This document shows positions 4,582-64,000 of a stretch of DNA of 64,000 nucleotides, piece after piece. Both the position numbers and the translations under genes were made by a program. The notes under the pieces are model-generated. The model made no database searches. It worked only from the letters and a program-made list of their open reading frames with translations, and had not been told where the DNA came from. Origin of the DNA: Pristiophorus japonicus (lineage: Eukaryota); NCBI RefSeq assembly GCF_044704955.1, contig NC_091977.1, forward strand, positions 430,838,001 to 430,902,000. Direction: 5' to 3'. Numbering within the stretch: position 1 is the first letter of the stretch; each line of letters starts with the position of its first letter.

Positions 4582-5604
4582 GTAAGTAACACTTGGGTTT
4601 TCAATGTGTATGCTCCTGAAACTATGTACTTCTGCACAATAGTGTTTGTAAGCATGTCATTTTTTTCCAAAAGTAATACCCAAGTAATTTTTCCACACTT
4701 TTAGTAGAATCATAGGAATTGCAGCATGAAAGGAGACCATTTCACTCACTGTGGCTGTGCGAGTGCTAGCTTTTCAACTTGGAGCTATCTACTTTATGTC
4801 CATTTCCCTGCCCAATCCCATATCTCTTTATATATTCTTCCTTTTCAAAGACTTATACAGTTTTATTTTAAAGAAAAGTCTCTGCCTTAATAGTTACTTG
4901 TGGTACAACATTCCATATTCTAATAATCTTCTGTGCGAAAATATTTATTTCAACTTTTCCTTTGTTCTTCAAGTGATAATCCTCAGTACATGCTTCCTTA
5001 TTGCTGATTAACTAACCCGTGGAAACAACCTTTCACTATTTACCTCCTCAAAAGCTTTCATAATTGTGGAAACCTCTGTTGAACCCCTGATTAACTTGCT
5101 CTGTTCAATGAAAAACCAAAACAATTTTCAAGCCTTTCTTCATAACTATAATAGGCCTGAATTTACAATCAGAGGCTTCCCGTGGGTGGATGCCTCCGAA
5201 CCACAATAAAACTACGCACCTATCTTATGATCCTGGATCCATAAAGACTCGCACTCCTCGGCCTCTACGCGTACACATGCATAGAGGCCCACATATCCCA
5301 GGGGCGCATACGGTTCGCAAGCGCCCCGAGGATCATGTGGGCCAGCCCAACCAACCAGAAAGAGGATTACCATTATGCTTATGGGGATTCCATTTATGTA
5401 CGGAATCCCCATAAGCTGAATAGGAATCACCCAAAAATTACATTTTAACAAAACTGAAATTTAAAAAAAATCATTACATGTTTAACATTAATTAAATATT
5501 AATTAAATACAATTTAATTAAATATTTGAAACAGTAATTCTTTGAAAACTAAATGTAAACATTTCTCAAGGGGCCATAACACAAACTTATTTTACAGGTT
5601 TTTA

Positions 5605-7135
5605 CATAAGAACACAAGAAATAGGAGCAGGAGTAGGCCATTTGGCCACTCATGCCTGCTCCGCCATTCAATAAAATCATGACTGATCTGATCTTGGCCT
5701 CAACTCCTTTTACCTGCCCGCTCCCCATAATCCTTGACTCCCTTATCATTCAAAAATCTGTCTATCTCCACCTTAAATACATTCAATGACCCCGCCTCCA
5801 CAGCTCTCTGGGGTAGAGAATTCCAAGGATTCACGACCCAGTGAGAGAAGAAATTCCTCCTCATTTCTGTTTTAAATGGGCGACCCCTTATTCTGAAACT
5901 ATGCCCGCTAGTTCTAGATTCACCCACGAGGGGAAACATTCTCTCTGCATCTACCCTGTCAAGCCCCCTCAGAATCTTATATGTTTCAATAAAATCACCT
6001 CTCATTCTTCTAAACTCCAATGAGTATAGGCCCAACCTTCTCAACCTTTTTTCATAAGACAATCCCTTCATCTCAGGATTTAACCTCATGAACCTTCTCT
6101 GAACTTCCTCCAATGCAAATATATTCCTCCTTAAATAAGGAGACCAAAACTGTACACAATACTCCAGATGTGGTCTCACCAACACCCTGTACAGCTGTAG
6201 CAGGACTTACATACTTTTATACTCCATCCCCCTTGCAATAAAGGCCAACATTCCATTTGCCTTCCTAATTAATTGCTGTACCTGAATACTAACTTTTGTG
6301 TTTCATGTACAAGGACCTCCAGATCCCTCTGTACCTCAGCATTTGGTAATCTCTCCCCATTTAAATAATAATTTGCTTTTTTATTTTTCCTACCAAAGTG
6401 GATAACCTCACATTTTCCCACATTATACTCCATCTGCCAAATCTTTGTCCATTCACTTAGCCTATTTATATTCCTTTGCATATTCTTTGTGTCCTCCTCA
6501 CAACTTGCTTTCCCACCTATGTTTGTATCATTAGCAAATTTGGCTACATTAAACTCGGTCTCTTCATCCAAGTCATTAATATAGATTATAAATAGTTGAG
6601 GCCCTTGCACTGATCCTTGTGGCACGCCACTAGTTACTGTTTGCCAACCGGAAAATGAGCCATTTATCCCGACTCTCTGTTTTCTGTTAGTTAGCTGATC
6701 CTCTATCCATGCTAATATATTACCCCCAACCCTGTGAGCTCTTATCTTGTGCAGTAACCTTTTATGTTCCGGAGCCGGGGGGTGGCACACTCTTGGGATG
6801 AGGGGTGGGCTGTTTGGGGCTGGGATTGGGAGAGACTTCTTCACTTGGGGAGTTGTTGGCCTGGGGGGTTCCCTGCCGCGGAGAGTTGTTGATGCCAGTT
6901 CATTGGATGTGTTCAGGAGGGAGTTGGATGTGGTCCTTGCGGCTGGGGGAGTCGGGGAGTGTGTGGAGGGGGCGTGTGGGGGAGGTGCTGGGGTGGGTGA
7001 TCAGCCATGATCTTGTTGAATGGCGGTGCAGGCTCGAAGGGCCAAATGGCCTACTCCTGCACCTATTTTCTATGTTTTTATGTTTCTATGTAGCACCTTA
7101 TCGAATGTCTTCTGGAAAATCCAAATATACAACAC
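5605..7135 (-). mobile_element. CR1 LINE 3' ~1.2 kb (RT), interrupted by 6768-7091
   Basis: ORFs 6269-6844 (GVPQGS, KFAND) and 5700-6185. Tail at 5605-5625. Sequence resumes after 7091 (agcaccttatcgaatg). Confidence 0.92.
6768..7091 (+). mobile_element. CR1 3' fragment with massive A-to-G hypermutation
   Basis: Colinear with CR1 19558-19870 but about 40 A positions are G. The 3' hairpin and (TTCTATGT)n tail are intact. Confidence 0.9.
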
Positions 7136-18999: not shown

Positions 19000-19870
19000 T
19001 GCAGGGTGACTTGGACAGGTTAGGTGAGTGGGCAAATGTGTGGCAGATGCAGTATAATGTGGATAAATGTGAGGTTATCCACTTTGGTGGCAAAAACATG
19101 AAGGCAGAATATTATCTGAATGGCGGCAGATTAGGAAAAGGGGAGGTGCAACGAGACCTGGGTGTCATGGTACATCAGTCATTGAAAGTTGGCATGCAGG
19201 TATAGCAGACGGTGAAGAAGGCAAATGGTATGTTGGCCTTCAAAGCTAGAGGATTTGAGTATAGGAGCAGGGAGGTCTTACTGCAGTTGTATAGGGCCTT
19301 AGTGAGGCCTGGAATATTGTGTTAAGTTTTGGTCTCCTAATCTGAGGAAGGACGTTCTTGCTATTGAGGGAGTGCAGCGAAGATTCACCAGACTGATTCC
19401 TGGGATGGCAGGACTGATATATGAGGAGAGACTGGATTGACTGGGCCTGTATTCACTGGAGTTTAGAAGGATGAGAGAGGATCTCATAAAAACATATAAA
19501 ATTCTGACGGGACTGGACAGGTTAGATGTGGGAAGAATGTTCCCGATGTTGGGGAAGTCCAGAACCAGGGGACTTAATCTAAGGATAAGGGATAAGCTAT
19601 TTAGGACTGAGATGAGGAGAAACTTCTTCACTCAGAGAGTTGTTAACCTGTGGAATTCCCTAACGCAGAGAGTTGTTGATGCCAGTTCATTGGATATATT
19701 CAAGAGGGAGTTAGATATGGCCCTTACGGCTAAAGGGATCAAGAAGTATGGAGAGAAAGCGGGAAAGGGGTACTGAGGTGAATGATCAGCCATGATCTTA
19801 TTGAATGGCGGTGCAGGCTTGAAGGGCCGAATGGCCTACTCCTGCACCTATTTTCTATGTTTCTATGTTT
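19000..19870 (+). mobile_element. CR1 3' fragment inserted in exon 2 of the H1 Myb gene
   Basis: LQGDLDRLGEWAN...GEKAGKGY*, hairpin and (TTCTATGT)n tail. Confidence 0.93.
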
Positions 19871-20619
19871 TTATTTGCTGTGTGCTACTTTCCTCTGCAA
19901 AGATGAAAACATAACTTTTTAGAGATGGTGTCTTTCTGCTGGGACATATACAGCTGGTCACATTTACAATTGCAATTCCATTGAATAAATGAAAATATTA
20001 CTTGTACTAACTATTTCACCAAGGTCCTGCCACTTCTTTTTGCACTGGCCTCGAGACCTCAGGGTGGTCACCATTGCGCAGTAATCTCCTGCAAGTTGTT
20101 TCCAGCATTTCTTCATTTCTTTTGGTGGAACTTTTACATGACCTCTGCTGGTGTCCAGCTCGTGCCATCTGCACTCAATCACAGTAACTGGTGCCTCCAG
20201 TTCATCCTGTAAGAAATTCTTGGTTTTTGCGCCGCGTTGCATCTTGTATTGCAGCTCCGATTTTTCCAATGAGAATTAAAGTTCTCACACACAACTGGCT
20301 CTTTTAAAATGGCCGAATGCAGATCGGGAGCTGGACTGGGCATGCGTGTGCATAGGTATCAAGTCAAAAATGTCCTTTTTTTTCACGCATGTGCAGAAGG
20401 GGCGGCATCGTTTTTTCAGCGCAGACATTAGGCGCCACCCCCCGAGACTACAAGACAGGTTGCGCGGTGCCAGTTTCAAAAAATAGAATGGGGAAACTTG
20501 CTACTAATTTTTTGGAGTAGTTAGGACCAAGAAAAACAGGCGTAACTCTGGCAATACGCCAAAAAATGGAATTGGGGAAAATTGAGACCTGTGATTCTCA
20601 GTGTGAAGCTGTGCTTCCC

Positions 20620-51938: not shown

Positions 51939-54900
51939 TCAAAGATTGAGTCTTTCAGGCGGTCGACGCCGCAGTTGGAGCTCTGGTTGTTGAGCCTTGG
52001 CATGTGTCTCTGTCACCTGTGGTGATTCCGGCTCGTCCGGGCTGACCGTAGGGACTGTGCATGCTGCTGAATGTTCTTGTTGCTCATTCACTGGCAGTAG
52101 TGTGGGCAGCATCTCATGATTTTCCTCAGGTTCCTCAGTGTCCATGCTGAACCTTTTTTTTTTACTTGGTCCAGATGCCTGCGGCATATCTGCCCATTGT
52201 TGAGTCTGACCACTATGACCCTATTGCCCTCTTTACCAATTACAGTACCCTCGAGCCACTTGGGCCCCACAGCATGATTAAGAACAAATACAGGGTCATC
52301 GATTTCTATACATCTCCCCTTTGAGTTATGGTCATGGCACTCATTTTGGGACTGGCGCTTGCCCTCTATAATGTCTGACAAGACCGGATGAATGAGGGAC
52401 AGCCGAGTTTTTGGTGTACGTTTCATGAGTAGTTCTGCTGGCGGGACTCCTGTGAGTGAGTGCGGTCGGCACCTGTAGGCCAGCAGGAGGCGCGATAGAC
52501 GGTATTGAAGGGAGGGTCCTTGAATCCGGAGCATGCCTTGCTTTATGATTTGGACCGCACGTTCCGCCTGGCCATTGGAAGCCGGCTTGAACAGCGCTGT
52601 CCTGACCTGTTTGATGCCATTACCCGACATGAACTCCCGGAATTCATAGCTAGTGAAACACGAGCCATTGTCGCTAACTAGGATGTCCAGCAAGCCGTGG
52701 GTCGCAAAGACCGCCCGCAGACTCTCCACTGTGGTGGATGTCGTGCGCGAATTCAATATGATGCACTCGATCCATTTCGAGCACGCATCAACAACAATGA
52801 GGAACATTTTTCCCATGAACGGGCCCACGTAGTCTACGTGAATACGTGACCATGGCCTGGTGGGCCAGGGCCACGGACTGATTGGGGCCTCCCTGGGGGC
52901 ATTGCCCAGCTGGGCACACGTCATGCACCTGCGAACACAGTGTTCCAGGTCTGCATCAATTCCCAGCCACCATACATGTGACCGGGCAATGGCCTTCATA
53001 AGCACGATGCCTGGGTGCTCGCTGTGGAGTTCCCTGATGAATGCTTCCCTACCCCTCTGGGACATGACTACCCGGCTGCCCCATAGTAGGCAGTCGGCTT
53101 GGATGGAGAGTTCATCTATCCGTCTGTGAAACGGTCTGACCTCTTCAGGGCAAGCTTCGTGTGCGGGAGCCCAATCCCCAGTCAGGACACATTTCTTAAT
53201 CAGAGATAGGAGGGGATCTCTGTTTCTCCAGGTTTTGATCTGATGGGCCGTGATGGGGGAGCCTGCACTGTCAAAGGCATCGACAGCCATGACCATCTCC
53301 GCGCTTTGCTCCGCTGCCCCCTCAGTGGTGGCCAGTGGAAGCCTGCTGAGTGCGTCAGCGCAGTTTTCGGTGCCTGGCCGGTGCCGTATGGTGTAGTCAT
53401 ACGCAGCCAGTGTGAGAGCCCATCGCTGTATGCGAGCTGACGCATTGGCATTGACAGATTTGCTGTCAGCCAACAGGGATGTTAACGGCTTGTGGTCCGT
53501 TTCTAACTCGAACCTTCTGCCAAAAAGGTACTGGTACATCTTTTTCACCCCATAGACACATGCGAGTGCTTCCTTTTCAACCATCCCATACCCCCTTTCT
53601 GTTTGGGAGAGCGACCTGGAGGCATAAGCCACAGGTTGGAGTTGGCCCTCATCATTATTCTGCTGCAACACGCACCCAACCCCATAACATGATGCATCGC
53701 ATGTCAAAACCAATTTCTTACAGGGGTCGGACAGCGTCAATAACTTATTAGAACAAAGTAGGTTCTGCGCCCGATTGAAAGCCCATTCCTGACAGTCCCC
53801 CCCCAAAATCACTCGCAACCCTTATGAGGAGCACATGAAGCGGCTCCAGCAATGTACTTAAGTTCGGTACAAAGTTCCCGAAATAGTTCAATAATCCCAG
53901 AAATTAACGCAACTCTGATATGTTGCCGGGCCTGGGCGCGCGACGGATCACCTCCGTTTTGGATTCGGTGGGCCGGATCCCATCTGCGGCAACCCTCCTG
54001 CCCAAAAACTCGACCTCTGGGGCCAAAAACACACACTTGGACTTCTTTAGTCACAGACCTACCCGGTCCAATCGGCGTAGCACCTCCTCCAGATTGTGGA
54101 GCTGTTCCTCTGTGTCTCGACCCGTGATAATGATGTCATCCTGAAATACGATTGTTCCGGGGCTGGATTTTAGCAGGCTTTCCATGTTCCTCTGAAAGAT
54201 AGCGGCTGCTGAACGAATGCCAAACAAACACCTGTTGTAGACAAACAGCCCCTTGTGCGTGGTGATGGTGGTCAGTAGATTGGATTCTTCGGCCAGTTCC
54301 TGGGTCATGTAGGCTGAAGTGAGGTCCAACTTGGTGAACAGCTTTCCGCCTGCCAGCGTGGCAAAAAGATCCTCCGCTCTCGGAAGCGGGTATTGGTCCT
54401 GAAGGGACACTCGGTTGATGGTGGCATTGTAGTCGCCACAGATCCTGACCGAGCCATCCGTTTTTAGAACAGGGATGATGGGGCTTGCCCAGTTGCTGAA
54501 TTCAACAGACGAAATTATGCCCTCTCTTAGCAACCTGTCCAACTCACTCTCAATTTTCTCCTGCATCACATACGGCACAGCTCTGGCTTTGTGGTGCACT
54601 GGTGTGCCATCCATAGTGATGCATATCCTTACTTTGGTGCCTTTGAAAATCCCGACACCAGGTGGAAATAATGACTCGAACTTTAGTAGGACCTGTGAAC
54701 ATGAACTTCGCTCCACAGATGAAATGGCGTGCACATCCCCCCATTTCCAGTCATCTCGGCTAGCCAACTCCTCCCCAAAAGCGCGGAACCATTTCCTGGG
54801 ACAATCCAGAGTGGCAGCCGGTTCTGAGATCCATTATGTGTGACCACCAACATTGCACTGGGATGATCTCTTTGGTGTATGTCCGTAATTGCGTGTCAAT

Positions 54901-60951: not shown

Positions 60952-63900
60952 TGTTATATATGTGTACTTGTATTTACTCTGTTTAGCCACCAGAGGGCTC
61001 ATCCCCCGGACTCCCAAGGGATCCCATAATCCCTTGAGAGCACCAAGTATTTAAGAAGGCTTCACATGTTGGAGAGGCACTCTGGAGACCTGCAATAAAA
61101 GACTAAGGTCACACTTTACTTTGAGCTCACAATCTTCAGTCTGACTCTTTCTCCATACATAACAACTGGCGACGAGATACAAATAGCGAACCCAAAGATG
61201 CAGAGAACAGTGGGCATCCTGGAGAAATTTTCAGAGAGAGATGATTGGGAAACTTTTGTAGAGCGACTCGAGCAATACTTCATGGCTAGATGGGGAAGAG
61301 AATGCTGCCAAACGTAGAGCGATCCTCCTCACCGTCTGTGGGGCACCAATGTATGGCGTCATGAAGAATCTGCTCACTCCAGCGAAACCCACGGAGAAAT
61401 CATACGACGATTTGTGCACACTGCTCTGAGAGCATTTAAACCCGAAGGAAAGCGTTCTGATGGCGAGGTACCGGTTCTACACCTCCAAAAGGTCGGAAGG
61501 CCAGAAAGTGGCGAGTTATGTCGCCGAGCTGAGACGCTTTGCAGGACATTGCGAATTTGAAGGACATTTGGAGCACATGCTCAGAGACTTTTTTGTACTT
61601 GGCATTGGACTCAAAACCATACTTTGCAAGCTTTTGACATTAGAGACCCCAACCTTGAGTAAGGCCATAGCGATAGCCCAGGCGTTCATTGCCACCAGTG
61701 ACAATACGAAGCAAATCTCTCAGCACACAAGTGCTGCTACAAGTACTGTGAACAAAGTGATGTTGTTTTCGAATCGTAATATATAGGGCAGGTCACACAT
61801 ACCTGCAGCTACACGTCCACAGATGTCTCAGAGTCCACCATCAAGGGTGATGAATGCAAGGCCATTAACACCTTGTTGGCGCTGCAGGGGTGATCATCGT
61901 TTCCATTCATGCCGATTCAAAGGATACGTTTGCAAGGGCTGTGGAACAATGGGACACCTCCAACGAGTGTGCAGGTGAGCTGCTAAGCCTGTTAAACCTG
62001 CAAACCACCACGATGCAGTGGAGGACAGGTCCATGGAGGATCACTACGAACCAGAGCCTCAGATCGAGGAGGCAGAGGTACATGGGGTGCACACATTCAC
62101 ACGAATTATCCCCCGATAATGCTGAATGTTGAACTAAATGGACTCCCGGTGTCAATGGAGCTGGACACGGGCGGAAGCCAGTCCATCATGGGCAAAAAGA
62201 TTTTCGAAAGGTTGTGGTGCAATAAGGCCTCAAGGCCAGTCTTAACTCCAGTTCGCACGAGACTAAGAACTTACACTAAAGAACTGATTCCTGTAATCAG
62301 CAGCACTACCATAAAGGTCTCCTACAATGGAGCGATGCACAAGCTACCACTCTGGGTGGTACCGGGTGATGGTCCCACGCTGCTCGGCAGGAGCAGGCTG
62401 GGAAAGATACACTGAACTGGGACAACGTCCGAGTGCTATCGCCCGTTGACGAAACTTCGTGTGCCCAGGTCTTAAACAAATTTCCTTTCCTGTTCGAACC
62501 AGGCATCGGGAAATTCTAAGGAACCAAAGTGCAGATCCATCTAATTCCGAGGGCGTGACCCATCCATCACAAGGCGAGAGCAGTACCGTACATGATGAGA
62601 GAAAGGGTAGAGATCGAGCTAGACCGACTGCAACAAGAGGGCATCATTTCACCGATCGAGTTCAGCGAGTAGGCCAGTCCTATTGTCCCAGTCCTCAAGG
62701 GAGATGGCATCATCAGAATCTGTGGCAATTACAAAGTAATTATCAATCGTTTCTCCTTGCAAGACCAATACTCACTACCAAAAGCCGACGACCTCTTTGC
62801 AACGCTGGTGGGAGGAAAGATGTTCACAAAGCTGGATCTGACTTCAGCCTACATGACGCAGGAACTGTAGGAATCATCGAAGGCCCTCACCTGCATCAAC
62901 ACGCACAAAGGTCTTTTTGTTTATAACATATGCCCGTTTGGAATCCGATCAGTTTGGCGGCGATATTCCAGAGAAACATGGAAAGTTTACTGAAGTCGGT
63001 CCTGCACACCGTGGTCTTCCAGGACGACATCTTGGTCACAGGTCGGAACACCGTCGAGCACATGCAGAACCTGCAAGAAGTTCTTAGTCGACTCAACCGC
63101 GTGGGGCTCAGGTTAAAACGCTCGAAGTGCGTTTTCCTGGCGCCTGAAGTGGAGTTCCTGGGAAGGAGGATTGCGGCGGATGGCATCAGGCCCACCAACG
63201 CAAAGACGGAGGCAATCAAGAACTCACCGAGGCCACAGAATGTGACGGAGCTGCGGTCGATTCTGGGACTCTTGAACTACTTTGGTAACTTCTTACCGGG
63301 TCTCAGCACCCTGCTAGAACCACTACATGTCTTACTACGAAAAGGGGGTGAATGGGTTTGGGGAAAAAGCCAAGAAAATGCCTTTGTAAAAGCGAGAAAA
63401 TTGTTATGCTCAAACAAATTGCTTGTGTTGTATGATCCATGTGAGCGTTTGGTACGAGCTTGTGATGCGTCGTCACATGGTGTCGGTGTGTATTGCAACA
63501 AGCTAATGATTTCAGGAAACTGCAACCGGTTGCTTATGCATCCAGGAGTCTAAGGCCGAGAGAGCCTACAGCGTGATTGAAAAAGAAGCATTAGCATGTG
63601 TCTATGGGGTAAAGAAAATGCATCAATACTTGTTTGGGCTAAAATTCGAATTGGAAACTGACCATAAGCCACTTATATCCCTGTTTTCCGAGAGTAAAGG
63701 GATAAATACCAACGCATCGGCCCGCATCCAGAGATGGGCGCTCACATTGTCCGCATACAACTACGCCATCCGCCACAGGCCAGGCACAGAAAACTGCGCC
63801 GATGCTCTCAGTCGGCTGCCATTGCCCACCACAGGGGTAGAAATGGCGCAGCCCGCAGATCTAGCCAAGTTATGGAAGCATTTGAGAGTGAGCAATCACC

Positions 63901-64000
63901 CATCACTGCCCGGCAGATCAAAACCTGGACTAGCCAGGACCCCTTATTATCGCTAGTCAAAAGCTGTGAGCTTCACGGGAGCCGGTCCAGTGTCCCAGTG
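60952..64000 (+). mobile_element. Second Mag-like Gypsy element (5' LTR 60952-61164, PBS 61167-61176, disrupted gag-pol from 61198), runs off the window
   Basis: TGTTAT..ATAACA LTR with AATAAA, TGGCGACGAG PBS, CWRC..H..C knuckles, LDTGGS, VFQDDI, ACDAS, IEKEALA. Confidence 0.95.

What the first reader, a model, noticed from the sequence alone, without database searches (positions are those of the whole stretch)
6768..7091. Genomic fossil of an ADAR-hyper-edited CR1 RNA (about 40 A-to-G changes, unedited 3' tail)
Seen: this + strand CR1 3' end aligns end to end with the ordinary copy at 19558-19870, but about 40-45 adenosines (manual count, depends on gap placement) are G. Examples: ctaaagggatcaa to ctgggggagtcgg; ggatatattcaag to ggatgtgttcagg; gttaacctgtggaattccc to gttggcctggggggttccc. 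Over 6768-7015 no TA or AA dinucleotide remains (the comparator has ~17 TA); surviving A's follow G or C. The last ~75 nt (stem-loop plus TTCTATGT tail) are not edited. One site (cactcag to cacttgg, ~6842-6848) fits A-to-G creating a CpG that later decayed to TpG. Established: ADAR deaminates A to I in dsRNA with 5'-neighbour preference U>A>C>G, RT reads I as G, and CR1-group RT recognises the 3' stem-loop and tail. APOBEC editing gives G-to-A, the opposite change. Inference: a CR1 transcript was hyper-edited in germline dsRNA and still retrotransposed because its tail was protected or required. This would record ADAR acting as an anti-LINE mutator and would be a route from RNA editing to heritable G-rich DNA.
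Basis: partly seen in the sequence, partly recalled or inferred. Interest (0 to 1): 0.88.

Follow-up and report, generated by a model that had tools for sequence, protein, structure and literature searches.

The report
RNA-edited LINE founded a repeat family
This G-rich stretch is one of well over a thousand copies of a jumping element whose single ancestor had about 70% of its A letters turned into G on one strand, likely by the RNA-editing enzyme ADAR before the RNA was copied into germline DNA, and six more differently edited copies suggest that this happened repeatedly.

Summary
The A-to-G shift is real, but it was not a one-off edit of this copy. 6768-7091 is a 5'-truncated member of a non-autonomous family: 1,293 exact hits of an edited 22-mer, 70 of 70 examined are members. 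Long members read: 38-bp tandem array, ~130 nt non-CR1 piece, CR1 ORF1/ORF2 junction, a ~2.4-kb deletion, CR1 3' end and tail. Against the parent CR1, 145 of 167 differences are A>G and 4 are T>C; editing by 5' neighbour is T 32/33, A 56/72, C 27/39, G 29/64, the ADAR order. The G's were fixed once, in the founder. A motif test in the region that the family lacks found 6 solo CR1 copies, each edited differently, against 0 for the T>C mirror and 37,101 unedited; their 3'UTRs are spared (3 of 113 A). One secondary source locus and its 5'-transduced daughter in a ferritin intron were traced. ADAR as the cause is inferred from the signature only. This scan already noted the same family at three other places in this genome and solo copies in other genomes; I found no paper describing it.

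The parts
6768..7091 (+). 5'-truncated copy of the G-rich non-autonomous CR1-derived family
   Evidence: 10 differences from the family majority in 324 columns; 39 genome matches at 93-96%
6768..6997 (+). A-to-G converted end of CR1 ORF2 (non-coding in the family)
   Evidence: 47 of 64 mismatches to the parent majority are A>G; 0 TA, 0 AA
6842..6848 (+). CpG made by an A>G change and later decayed to TpG
   Evidence: parent A, family CG, window TG
6998..7066 (+). CR1 3'UTR with two predicted hairpins; one A>G (7015) in a loop
   Evidence: same centroid fold as the comparator; z-scores weak, -0.81 and -1.87; 1 A>G in 93 columns
7067..7091 (+). 8-bp tail repeats; last unit resembles the target just left of the insertion (7 of 8 bases)
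   Evidence: sequence; period-8 repeat in other copies
5602..6767 (-). older CR1 copy of another family, host of the insertion (3' part)
   Evidence: 70-72% to the parent-type copies, opposite strand
7092..7130 (-). host CR1 resumes after the insertion
   Evidence: loose ends at 6767 in four runs continue with the sequence found at 7092; joints skipping about 325 bases
19000..19870 (+). ordinary, unedited copy of the parent CR1 subfamily (comparator)
   Evidence: 10 differences from the parent majority in 313 columns, 1 A>G

Best explanation
6768-7091 is a 5'-truncated copy of a non-autonomous, CR1-tailed retroelement family of well over a thousand copies whose single founder carries A-to-G changes at about 70% of the adenosines of its CR1 part, likely made by ADAR on the RNA and likely written into germline DNA by CR1 reverse transcriptase. 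Steps: (1) shown: an abundant coding CR1 subfamily is the parent. (2) inferred: now and then a CR1 RNA lay in a long duplex with an inverted or antisense CR1 and was hyper-edited A to I. (3) inferred: only RNAs with an intact 3'UTR and tail were reverse transcribed; I was read as G. Shown result: six solo copies and the founder, all sense-strand A>G, all with nearly untouched UTRs. (4) shown: the founder lacks ~2.4 kb of ORF2 and sits behind a 38-bp array and a ~130-nt unedited piece; inferred, weakly: the deletion was a template jump on the already edited RNA. (5) shown: the edited composite was then copied as ordinary DNA sequence, with variable 5' truncation, from more than one source locus; one source (contig C13) gave a daughter carrying 2.2 kb of its upstream flank. 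Inferred: these are read-through Pol II transcripts mobilised in trans through the CR1 tail.
For: Family versus parent: 5' block 84 of 94 mismatches A>G in 334 columns, 3' block 61 of 73 in 378; T>C 4 in all; 144 of 208 parent A's changed, by 5' neighbour T 32/33, A 56/72, C 27/39, G 29/64, p 6e-7. This is the pattern given for ADAR (5' G depleted, 3' G enriched) in PMC3197674 and PMC8586724 (passages). Polarity: the A-rich form codes endonuclease and RT domains (Pfam) and the G-rich form loses the conserved residues. One event: A at edited non-CpG G's 133 of 6,780 versus 225 of 11,267 at native G's, p 0.91; 70 of 70 sampled copies have G at 90% or more of the edited sites covered. Recurrence: designed motif in the deleted region, 6 hits; T>C mirror 0; unedited 37,101. 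The six carry 56-196 A>G against 2-11 T>C, differ pairwise at 54-106 edited sites and share 1-8 other changes; pooled without the motif, 538 of 750 mismatches are A>G, 5' T 57%, A 55%, C 36%, G 22%, 3' G 47% highest. Their UTRs: 3 of 113 A changed, against 41% upstream. Retrotransposition: 67 of 70 copies end in the tail, 5' ends are scattered, empty sites seen for the window and for the C4 insertion. Source: at C13 the copy lies inside a hAT element with both terminal repeats and only 9 loci hold the 5' 150 nt, 8 of them one tandem cluster.
Against: No inosine, no RNA and no ADAR dependence were observed; the enzyme is inferred from sequence alone. The duplex partner of the founder was not found: the inverted, unedited CR1 1.9 kb behind the C4 copies belongs to a daughter locus and is not among the 15 closest of 69 unedited 3' ends. 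The same motif test on the older host CR1 family gave 0 hits (no unedited denominator was counted). The 2.2-kb flank carried from C13 to C4 is not edited (A>G 6, T>C 6 of 39), so later rounds show no editing. In cultured cells ADAR1 restricts L1 without editing and no edits were found in 2.5 kb of L1 RNA (PMC5224506 passages). The 70-copy sample was chosen by an edited motif, so partly edited intermediates would be under-sampled. Subfamily columns show homoplasy, so the order of source loci is not resolved and the founder locus is not identified.
Confidence: 0.8

Rival explanations
1. Error bursts of the CR1 reverse transcriptase (for example dTTP shortage, or slippage next to G runs) put C opposite template A during single insertion events; no RNA editing is needed.
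For: Would also give sense-strand, single-event changes. A>T exceeds T>A at conserved columns in the solos (18 versus 3), as a general failure at template A might give (reading inosine as another base would give it too).
Against: Slippage predicts that A next to a 5' G is favoured (my reasoning); observed 17% with only a 5' G, 46% with no G neighbour, 53% with only a 3' G. A>C is not raised (12 versus T>G 15). Rates of 40-70% per A over 1-2 kb with about 3% other changes, and sparing of the first-copied 100 nt, are hard to get from pool imbalance.
Confidence: 0.07
2. A G-rich subfamily evolved step by step over many rounds of retrotransposition by mutation bias or selection (loss of TA/AA, gain of G runs), with no single editing event.
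For: The family has subfamily columns; A>G among copies is higher than T>C in the CR1 body (118 of 3,822 versus 38 of 7,420), though about half of these fall in four columns and G runs misalign.
Against: Only 22 non-A>G differences separate family and parent in 712 columns, too few rounds for 145 A>G; no residual A at edited sites; no unedited form of the deletion junction (exact pattern only); six solos show the same change made in one step.
Confidence: 0.05
3. An adenine deaminase acted on DNA (cDNA during insertion, or an R-loop at an integrated copy) rather than on RNA.
For: ADARs can act on the DNA strand of RNA:DNA hybrids (recalled, no call). The context would look the same.
Against: The DNA strand in a hybrid with the element's own RNA is the antisense strand, which would give sense T>C; the T>C mirror motif gave 0 hits and no T>C-biased piece was found among 269 CR1 pieces in the fetched DNA. 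Post-insertion damage would not spare the 3'UTR.
Confidence: 0.05
4. Assembly or sequencing artefact.
For: G runs vary in length between the C4 paralogues.
Against: 1,293 motif hits on both strands, separate flanks, CpG decay, and contigs of two studies hold the segment.
Confidence: 0.005

Closest known systems
ADAR-type A-to-G hypermutation recorded in retroviral DNA: RAV-1 and avian leukosis virus (PMC8586724, passage); BLV 3' LTR clusters in three proviruses (PMC8025556, passages)
   Same: Edited RNA reverse transcribed and fixed in integrated DNA as clustered A>G.
   Different: Those are somatic proviruses with short clusters (about 70 bp in BLV). Here: a non-LTR element, germline, 1-2 kb tracts, repeated events, and one edited RNA that founded a family.
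APOBEC-edited endogenous retroelements (PMC4866542, PMC2873906; passages)
   Same: Deaminase hypermutation of a retroelement intermediate, fixed in the genome, found by one-directional mismatch clusters against a subfamily majority.
   Different: G>A made on cDNA, mostly LTR elements; here A>G on the RNA-sense strand of a LINE. That screen filtered for G>A and against A>G.
Hyper-edited (ultra-edited) RNAs from inverted repeats (PMC3197674, passages)
   Same: Same mismatch type and neighbour pattern; repeats as substrate.
   Different: There the changes exist in RNA only; here they are in DNA.
SINEs with a LINE-derived 3' tail, such as HE1/HER1 of sharks and rays and SINEX-1_CM (PMC3747384, passages and table)
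   Same: Non-autonomous, shares the 3' end of a partner LINE thought to need stringent 3' recognition.
   Different: No tRNA-derived head found; the 5' part is a tandem array and host flank, and the body is an edited, internally deleted LINE.
SVA/LAVA composite retrotransposons of apes (recalled, not read)
   Same: Composite of a variable tandem array and TE pieces, GC-rich, LINE-mobilised, 5' transduction from source loci.
   Different: No Alu-like or SINE-R part, no poly(A); CR1 tail; G-richness comes from A>G conversion.

Membership tests
CR1-type non-LTR retrotransposon (parent) | ORF2 with APE endonuclease and reverse transcriptase | tested here: met
   PF03372, PF14529 in L100; PF00078 in window copies
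CR1-type non-LTR retrotransposon (parent) | 3' microsatellite tail instead of poly(A), 5' truncation | tested here: met
CR1-type non-LTR retrotransposon (parent) | placement in the CR1 clade by RT phylogeny | not tested
ADAR hyper-editing product | clustered A>G dominating all other changes, on one strand | tested here: met
   145 of 167 (family), 538 of 750 (solos); T>C 4 and 26
ADAR hyper-editing product | 5' G depleted, 3' G enriched | tested here: met
   pattern as in PMC3197674
ADAR hyper-editing product | long dsRNA partner for the edited tract | tested here: inconclusive
   inverted CR1 near a daughter locus only; founder locus not found
ADAR hyper-editing product | inosine in RNA; dependence on ADAR catalysis | not testable with these tools
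   no raw RNA reads; no experiment
APOBEC-edited retroelement | sense-strand G>A clusters | tested here: not met
   G>A 3 of 167 at family level; the A-rich form is the coding one
SINE (Pol III, tRNA/5S/7SL head) | small-RNA-derived head | tested here: not met
   ARAGORN 0 genes in 4 of 4 loci; Rfam one sub-threshold match, 22.7 bits against 105
SINE (Pol III, tRNA/5S/7SL head) | 3' tail shared with a partner LINE | tested here: met
   2 differences in 93 columns
SVA-like composite retrotransposon | variable tandem array within the mobilised unit | tested here: met
   38-bp unit, about 9 to more than 185 copies in 8 of 8 extended loci
SVA-like composite retrotransposon | Alu-like and SINE-R parts, poly(A), L1 partner (recalled) | tested here: not met
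   body is CR1-derived and ends in an 8-bp repeat; works like, not a member

The most novel reading that the evidence does not exclude
RNA editing can create a transposon family in one step: ADAR rewrote a LINE RNA so thoroughly (about 25% divergence, no TA left, CpG 10 to 37, four G-quadruplex motifs) that the copy escaped CR1-directed silencing and premature termination while keeping the tail for the CR1 enzyme, and even its deletion junction was made on microhomology that only editing created.
Probability: 0.25. Interest if true: 0.92.

Novelty: new variant of a known kind. Interest (0 to 1): 0.74.

Why it matters
It gives a countable germline record of A-to-I-type editing written back into DNA through a LINE, the RNA-level counterpart of APOBEC-edited retroviruses. 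It makes two open questions testable from genomes alone: how often edited LINE RNA still inserts (here of the order of 1 in 1,000 copies, a rough inference), and which part of the RNA must stay unedited (the 99-nt 3'UTR). It also shows an undescribed way to found a non-autonomous family, and that such families will be mis-dated or missed by repeat annotation because they look 25% diverged from a parent of the same age (3.5% versus 3.8% within-family divergence).

Tried and rejected
One-off edit of this copy: rejected. Unedited master that is re-edited at each round: rejected (all six C4 copies read and C13 are edited in DNA). C4 cluster as the founder or source: first thought so, rejected when empty-site paralogues showed it to be an insertion and the hAT ends showed the flank to be native at C13. 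Inverted CR1 at C4 as the founder's duplex partner: not supported. Unedited precursor with the same deletion: none by one exact degenerate pattern, 4 hits all edited. Edited motif in the older host family: 0 hits. Sequencing runs: no RNA holder listed; all runs laid were contigs. In runs of four other organisms the edited body had no or trace cover while the shared tail was deep; holes in contigs prove nothing, so lineage restriction is not claimed. RNA folds of the tail have weak z-scores. The background count was spoiled by unrelated flanks of truncated copies and is not used; one search is the clean control. One copy (L179) was mis-trimmed and left out of the divergence mean (69 of 70); one search shows it is a full-length member. 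An ADAR gene was not searched for in this genome. Nine literature searches (listings only) showed no paper on ADAR-edited LINE copies fixed in a genome or on this family; subscription journals and repeat databases were not searchable, and no supplements were read.

Full report
Observation. The stretch 6768-7091 aligns with the ordinary CR1 3' end at 19583-19874 at 80% identity. Against the majority of 30 parent copies it has 64 mismatches, 47 of them A>G and 2 T>C; the comparator has 10 mismatches with 1 A>G. There is no TA or AA in 6768-7015 and the 29 remaining A's follow G (21) or C (8). The copy sits antisense inside an older CR1 (5602-6767); contigs in four runs continue from 6767 with the sequence that resumes at 7092, which gives the empty site.

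It is a family. A search of the genome with 6768-7015 gave 40 matches among 40 scored of 1,837 candidates, 39 of them elsewhere at 93-96% over the whole length. An exact 22-mer that holds four edited positions has 1,293 matches, control 0. I examined 70 of the first 100 listed; all 70 carry G at 90% or more of the edited sites they cover, 67 of 70 end in the CR1 tail, 59 span the internal junction and 36 reach the tandem array (one more each once L179 is trimmed correctly). The motif is exact in 22 of 30 best hits, so about 2,000 copies is a fair inference. The window copy differs from the family majority (built from 20 long loci of the 30 best hits) at 10 places, 6 G>A and 2 C>T among them, none A>G. 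It inherited its G's.

Anatomy. Long members read, 5' to 3': a 38-bp tandem array of about 9 to more than 185 units (8 of 8 loci extended); about 130 nt of non-CR1 sequence that keeps its TA and AA; 334 columns of the CR1 ORF1/ORF2 junction and endonuclease start; a deletion of about 2.37 kb; the last 378 columns of CR1 with the tail. The A-rich parent codes endonuclease and RT domains, and the G-rich reading loses the conserved residues, which fixes the direction as A to G. No tRNA head was found.

Spectrum. In the 5' block 84 of 94 differences are A>G (parent majority of 25 loci), in the 3' block 61 of 73; T>C totals 4. Of 208 parent A's in the body 144 are G, by 5' neighbour T 32/33, A 56/72, C 27/39, G 29/64. 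Passages in PMC3197674 and PMC8586724 give depletion of 5' G and excess of 3' G as the ADAR motif. The last 93 columns hold one A>G, in a predicted loop. The conversion raised CpG from 10 to 37 and removed all 35 TA; new CpGs decay like old ones, 7.6% versus 8.2% A on the G side.

One event, then copying. If each copy were edited afresh from an unedited master, edited positions would show more A than native G's. They do not: 133 of 6,780 versus 225 of 11,267 outside CpG, p 0.91. A degenerate pattern for the unedited deletion junction found 4 hits, all edited members. Family copies are 3.5% from their majority (69 copies) and parent copies 3.8% (30 best hits, biased low), so the two were active at about the same time. 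The sample was picked by an edited motif, which would hide intermediates.

It happened more than once. I wrote a 33-letter motif from the RT region, which the family lacks, with four TA sites set to TG. It had 6 matches; the T>C mirror had 0; the unedited motif had 37,101. All six loci are 5'-truncated or long CR1 copies with tails, carrying 66, 56, 97, 105, 196 and 144 A>G against 2-11 T>C; any two disagree at 54-106 edited sites and share 1-8 other changes, so they are separate events. Pooled without the motif and the last 310 nt, 538 of 750 mismatches are A>G; 5' T 130/228, A 190/346, C 112/309, G 106/490; 3' G 226/481 is highest. Editing is 41% upstream, 22% (83 of 379) in the last 210 nt of ORF2 and 3 of 113 in the 3'UTR. 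With a TA rate near 57%, the chance of all four sites is about 0.1, so edited copies are of the order of 1 in 1,000; this is a rough inference. The same test on the older host family gave 0. Among 269 CR1 pieces in the fetched DNA, every A>G-biased piece was a family member or one of the six, and none was T>C-biased.

How the family moves. An upstream motif shared by two copies led to a tandem cluster on C4. There the element with 2.2 kb of upstream sequence is an insertion, antisense in the third intron of a ferritin gene, with empty-site paralogues. The same 2.2 kb lies before a copy on C13, and only these 9 loci hold its first 150 nt. At C13 the copy is bracketed by both terminal repeats of a hAT element with 8-bp flanks that match at 7 of 8, so the flank is native there. 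C13 is thus a source whose read-through RNA was retrotransposed to C4; a second copy (L020) shares its rare alleles and a few bases of its flank. Most family copies lack those alleles, so C13 is not shown to be the founder. The carried flank is not edited (A>G 6, T>C 6 of 39). An inverted unedited CR1 lies 1.9 kb behind the C4 copies, but it is at a daughter locus and is not a close relative of the family. At the deletion junction the two sides share 2 bases in the unedited parent and 4 when the 3' side is edited as in 4 of the 6 solos; this weakly suggests that the deletion arose on edited RNA.

Mechanism and rivals. The best reading is ADAR hyper-editing of CR1 RNA in a duplex, selection at target-primed reverse transcription for an intact 3' end (stringent 3' recognition, PMC3747384 passages), and later spread of one edited composite in trans. 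The sequence results are shown; the enzyme, the duplex and the promoter are inferred. RT error is the main rival, but A is changed least when only its 5' neighbour is G (17%) and often with no G neighbour (46%). DNA-level deamination in a hybrid with the element's RNA would give T>C. Gradual G enrichment does not fit 22 other differences beside 145 A>G. Against the reading: ADAR1 restricts L1 without editing in cell assays (PMC5224506 passages), though that paper allows for rare editing below its detection.

Relation to what is known. A>G clusters ascribed to ADAR are known in avian retroviruses and BLV proviruses, and APOBEC G>A fossils in endogenous retroelements. Nine searches of the held library (listings only) showed no report of germline-fixed A>G-edited LINE copies or of a family founded by one; repeat databases and subscription journals could not be searched. 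This scan's own notes already describe the same family from three other places in this genome and solo copies in other genomes; these are AI notes, read after my tests, and are not independent support. That the host is a cartilaginous fish is recalled from the tail sequence and those notes, not tested.

Verdict. Observation confirmed; interpretation partly supported; a new variant of a known kind (deaminase marks fixed by reverse transcription), with a family-founding twist. Interest 0.74.

Noticed in passing
G000:C4:127.8-133.4 Mb (L077-L094, L200-L209): A large ferritin gene cluster: 40 of 40 scored matches to a last-exon stretch lie here; eight ~60-kb tandem units at 97-99.9% identity carry the family insertion about 25 nt from the exon 3 donor site.
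   Followed up: partly
G000:C13:148.717-148.751 Mb (L219, L220, L032): Three family copies within about 30 kb, one of them a source locus, where about one per 2-3 Mb is expected; the two neighbours lack the source's rare alleles.
   Followed up: partly
L034 and L035, upstream of the element: The 38-bp array reaches 155 and more than 185 units (5.8 and over 7 kb) in some copies and under 20 in the C13 source; it may expand during or after insertion.
   Followed up: no
L031 and L037 (C4:160.89 Mb, C4:223.57 Mb); L005 and L022 (C24): Pairs of family copies share both flanks (88-89% and 95-98%), in the first case inside what looks like an LTR element; they were duplicated along with their surroundings.
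   Followed up: partly
L194-L199: Several A's are edited in most of the six solos and in the founder (hot spots about 380-330 nt from the 3' end); A>T exceeds T>A at conserved columns (18 versus 3).
   Followed up: partly
window 6760-6767 and 7084-7091; several loci: Insertions often land on a target that resembles the 8-bp tail repeat, several of them inside other CR1 copies.
   Followed up: no
L221 2159-3039 in the element's orientation (C13, about 2-3 kb behind the source copy): A CR1 3' end duplicated in inverted orientation, 95-96% to the parent majority, unedited.
   Followed up: no
window 53227-54818 and 62343-63929: An inverted pair of 1.6-kb repeats at 67% identity, with a purine/pyrimidine simple repeat near 8.6-9.0 kb from the window's end on the minus strand.
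   Followed up: no
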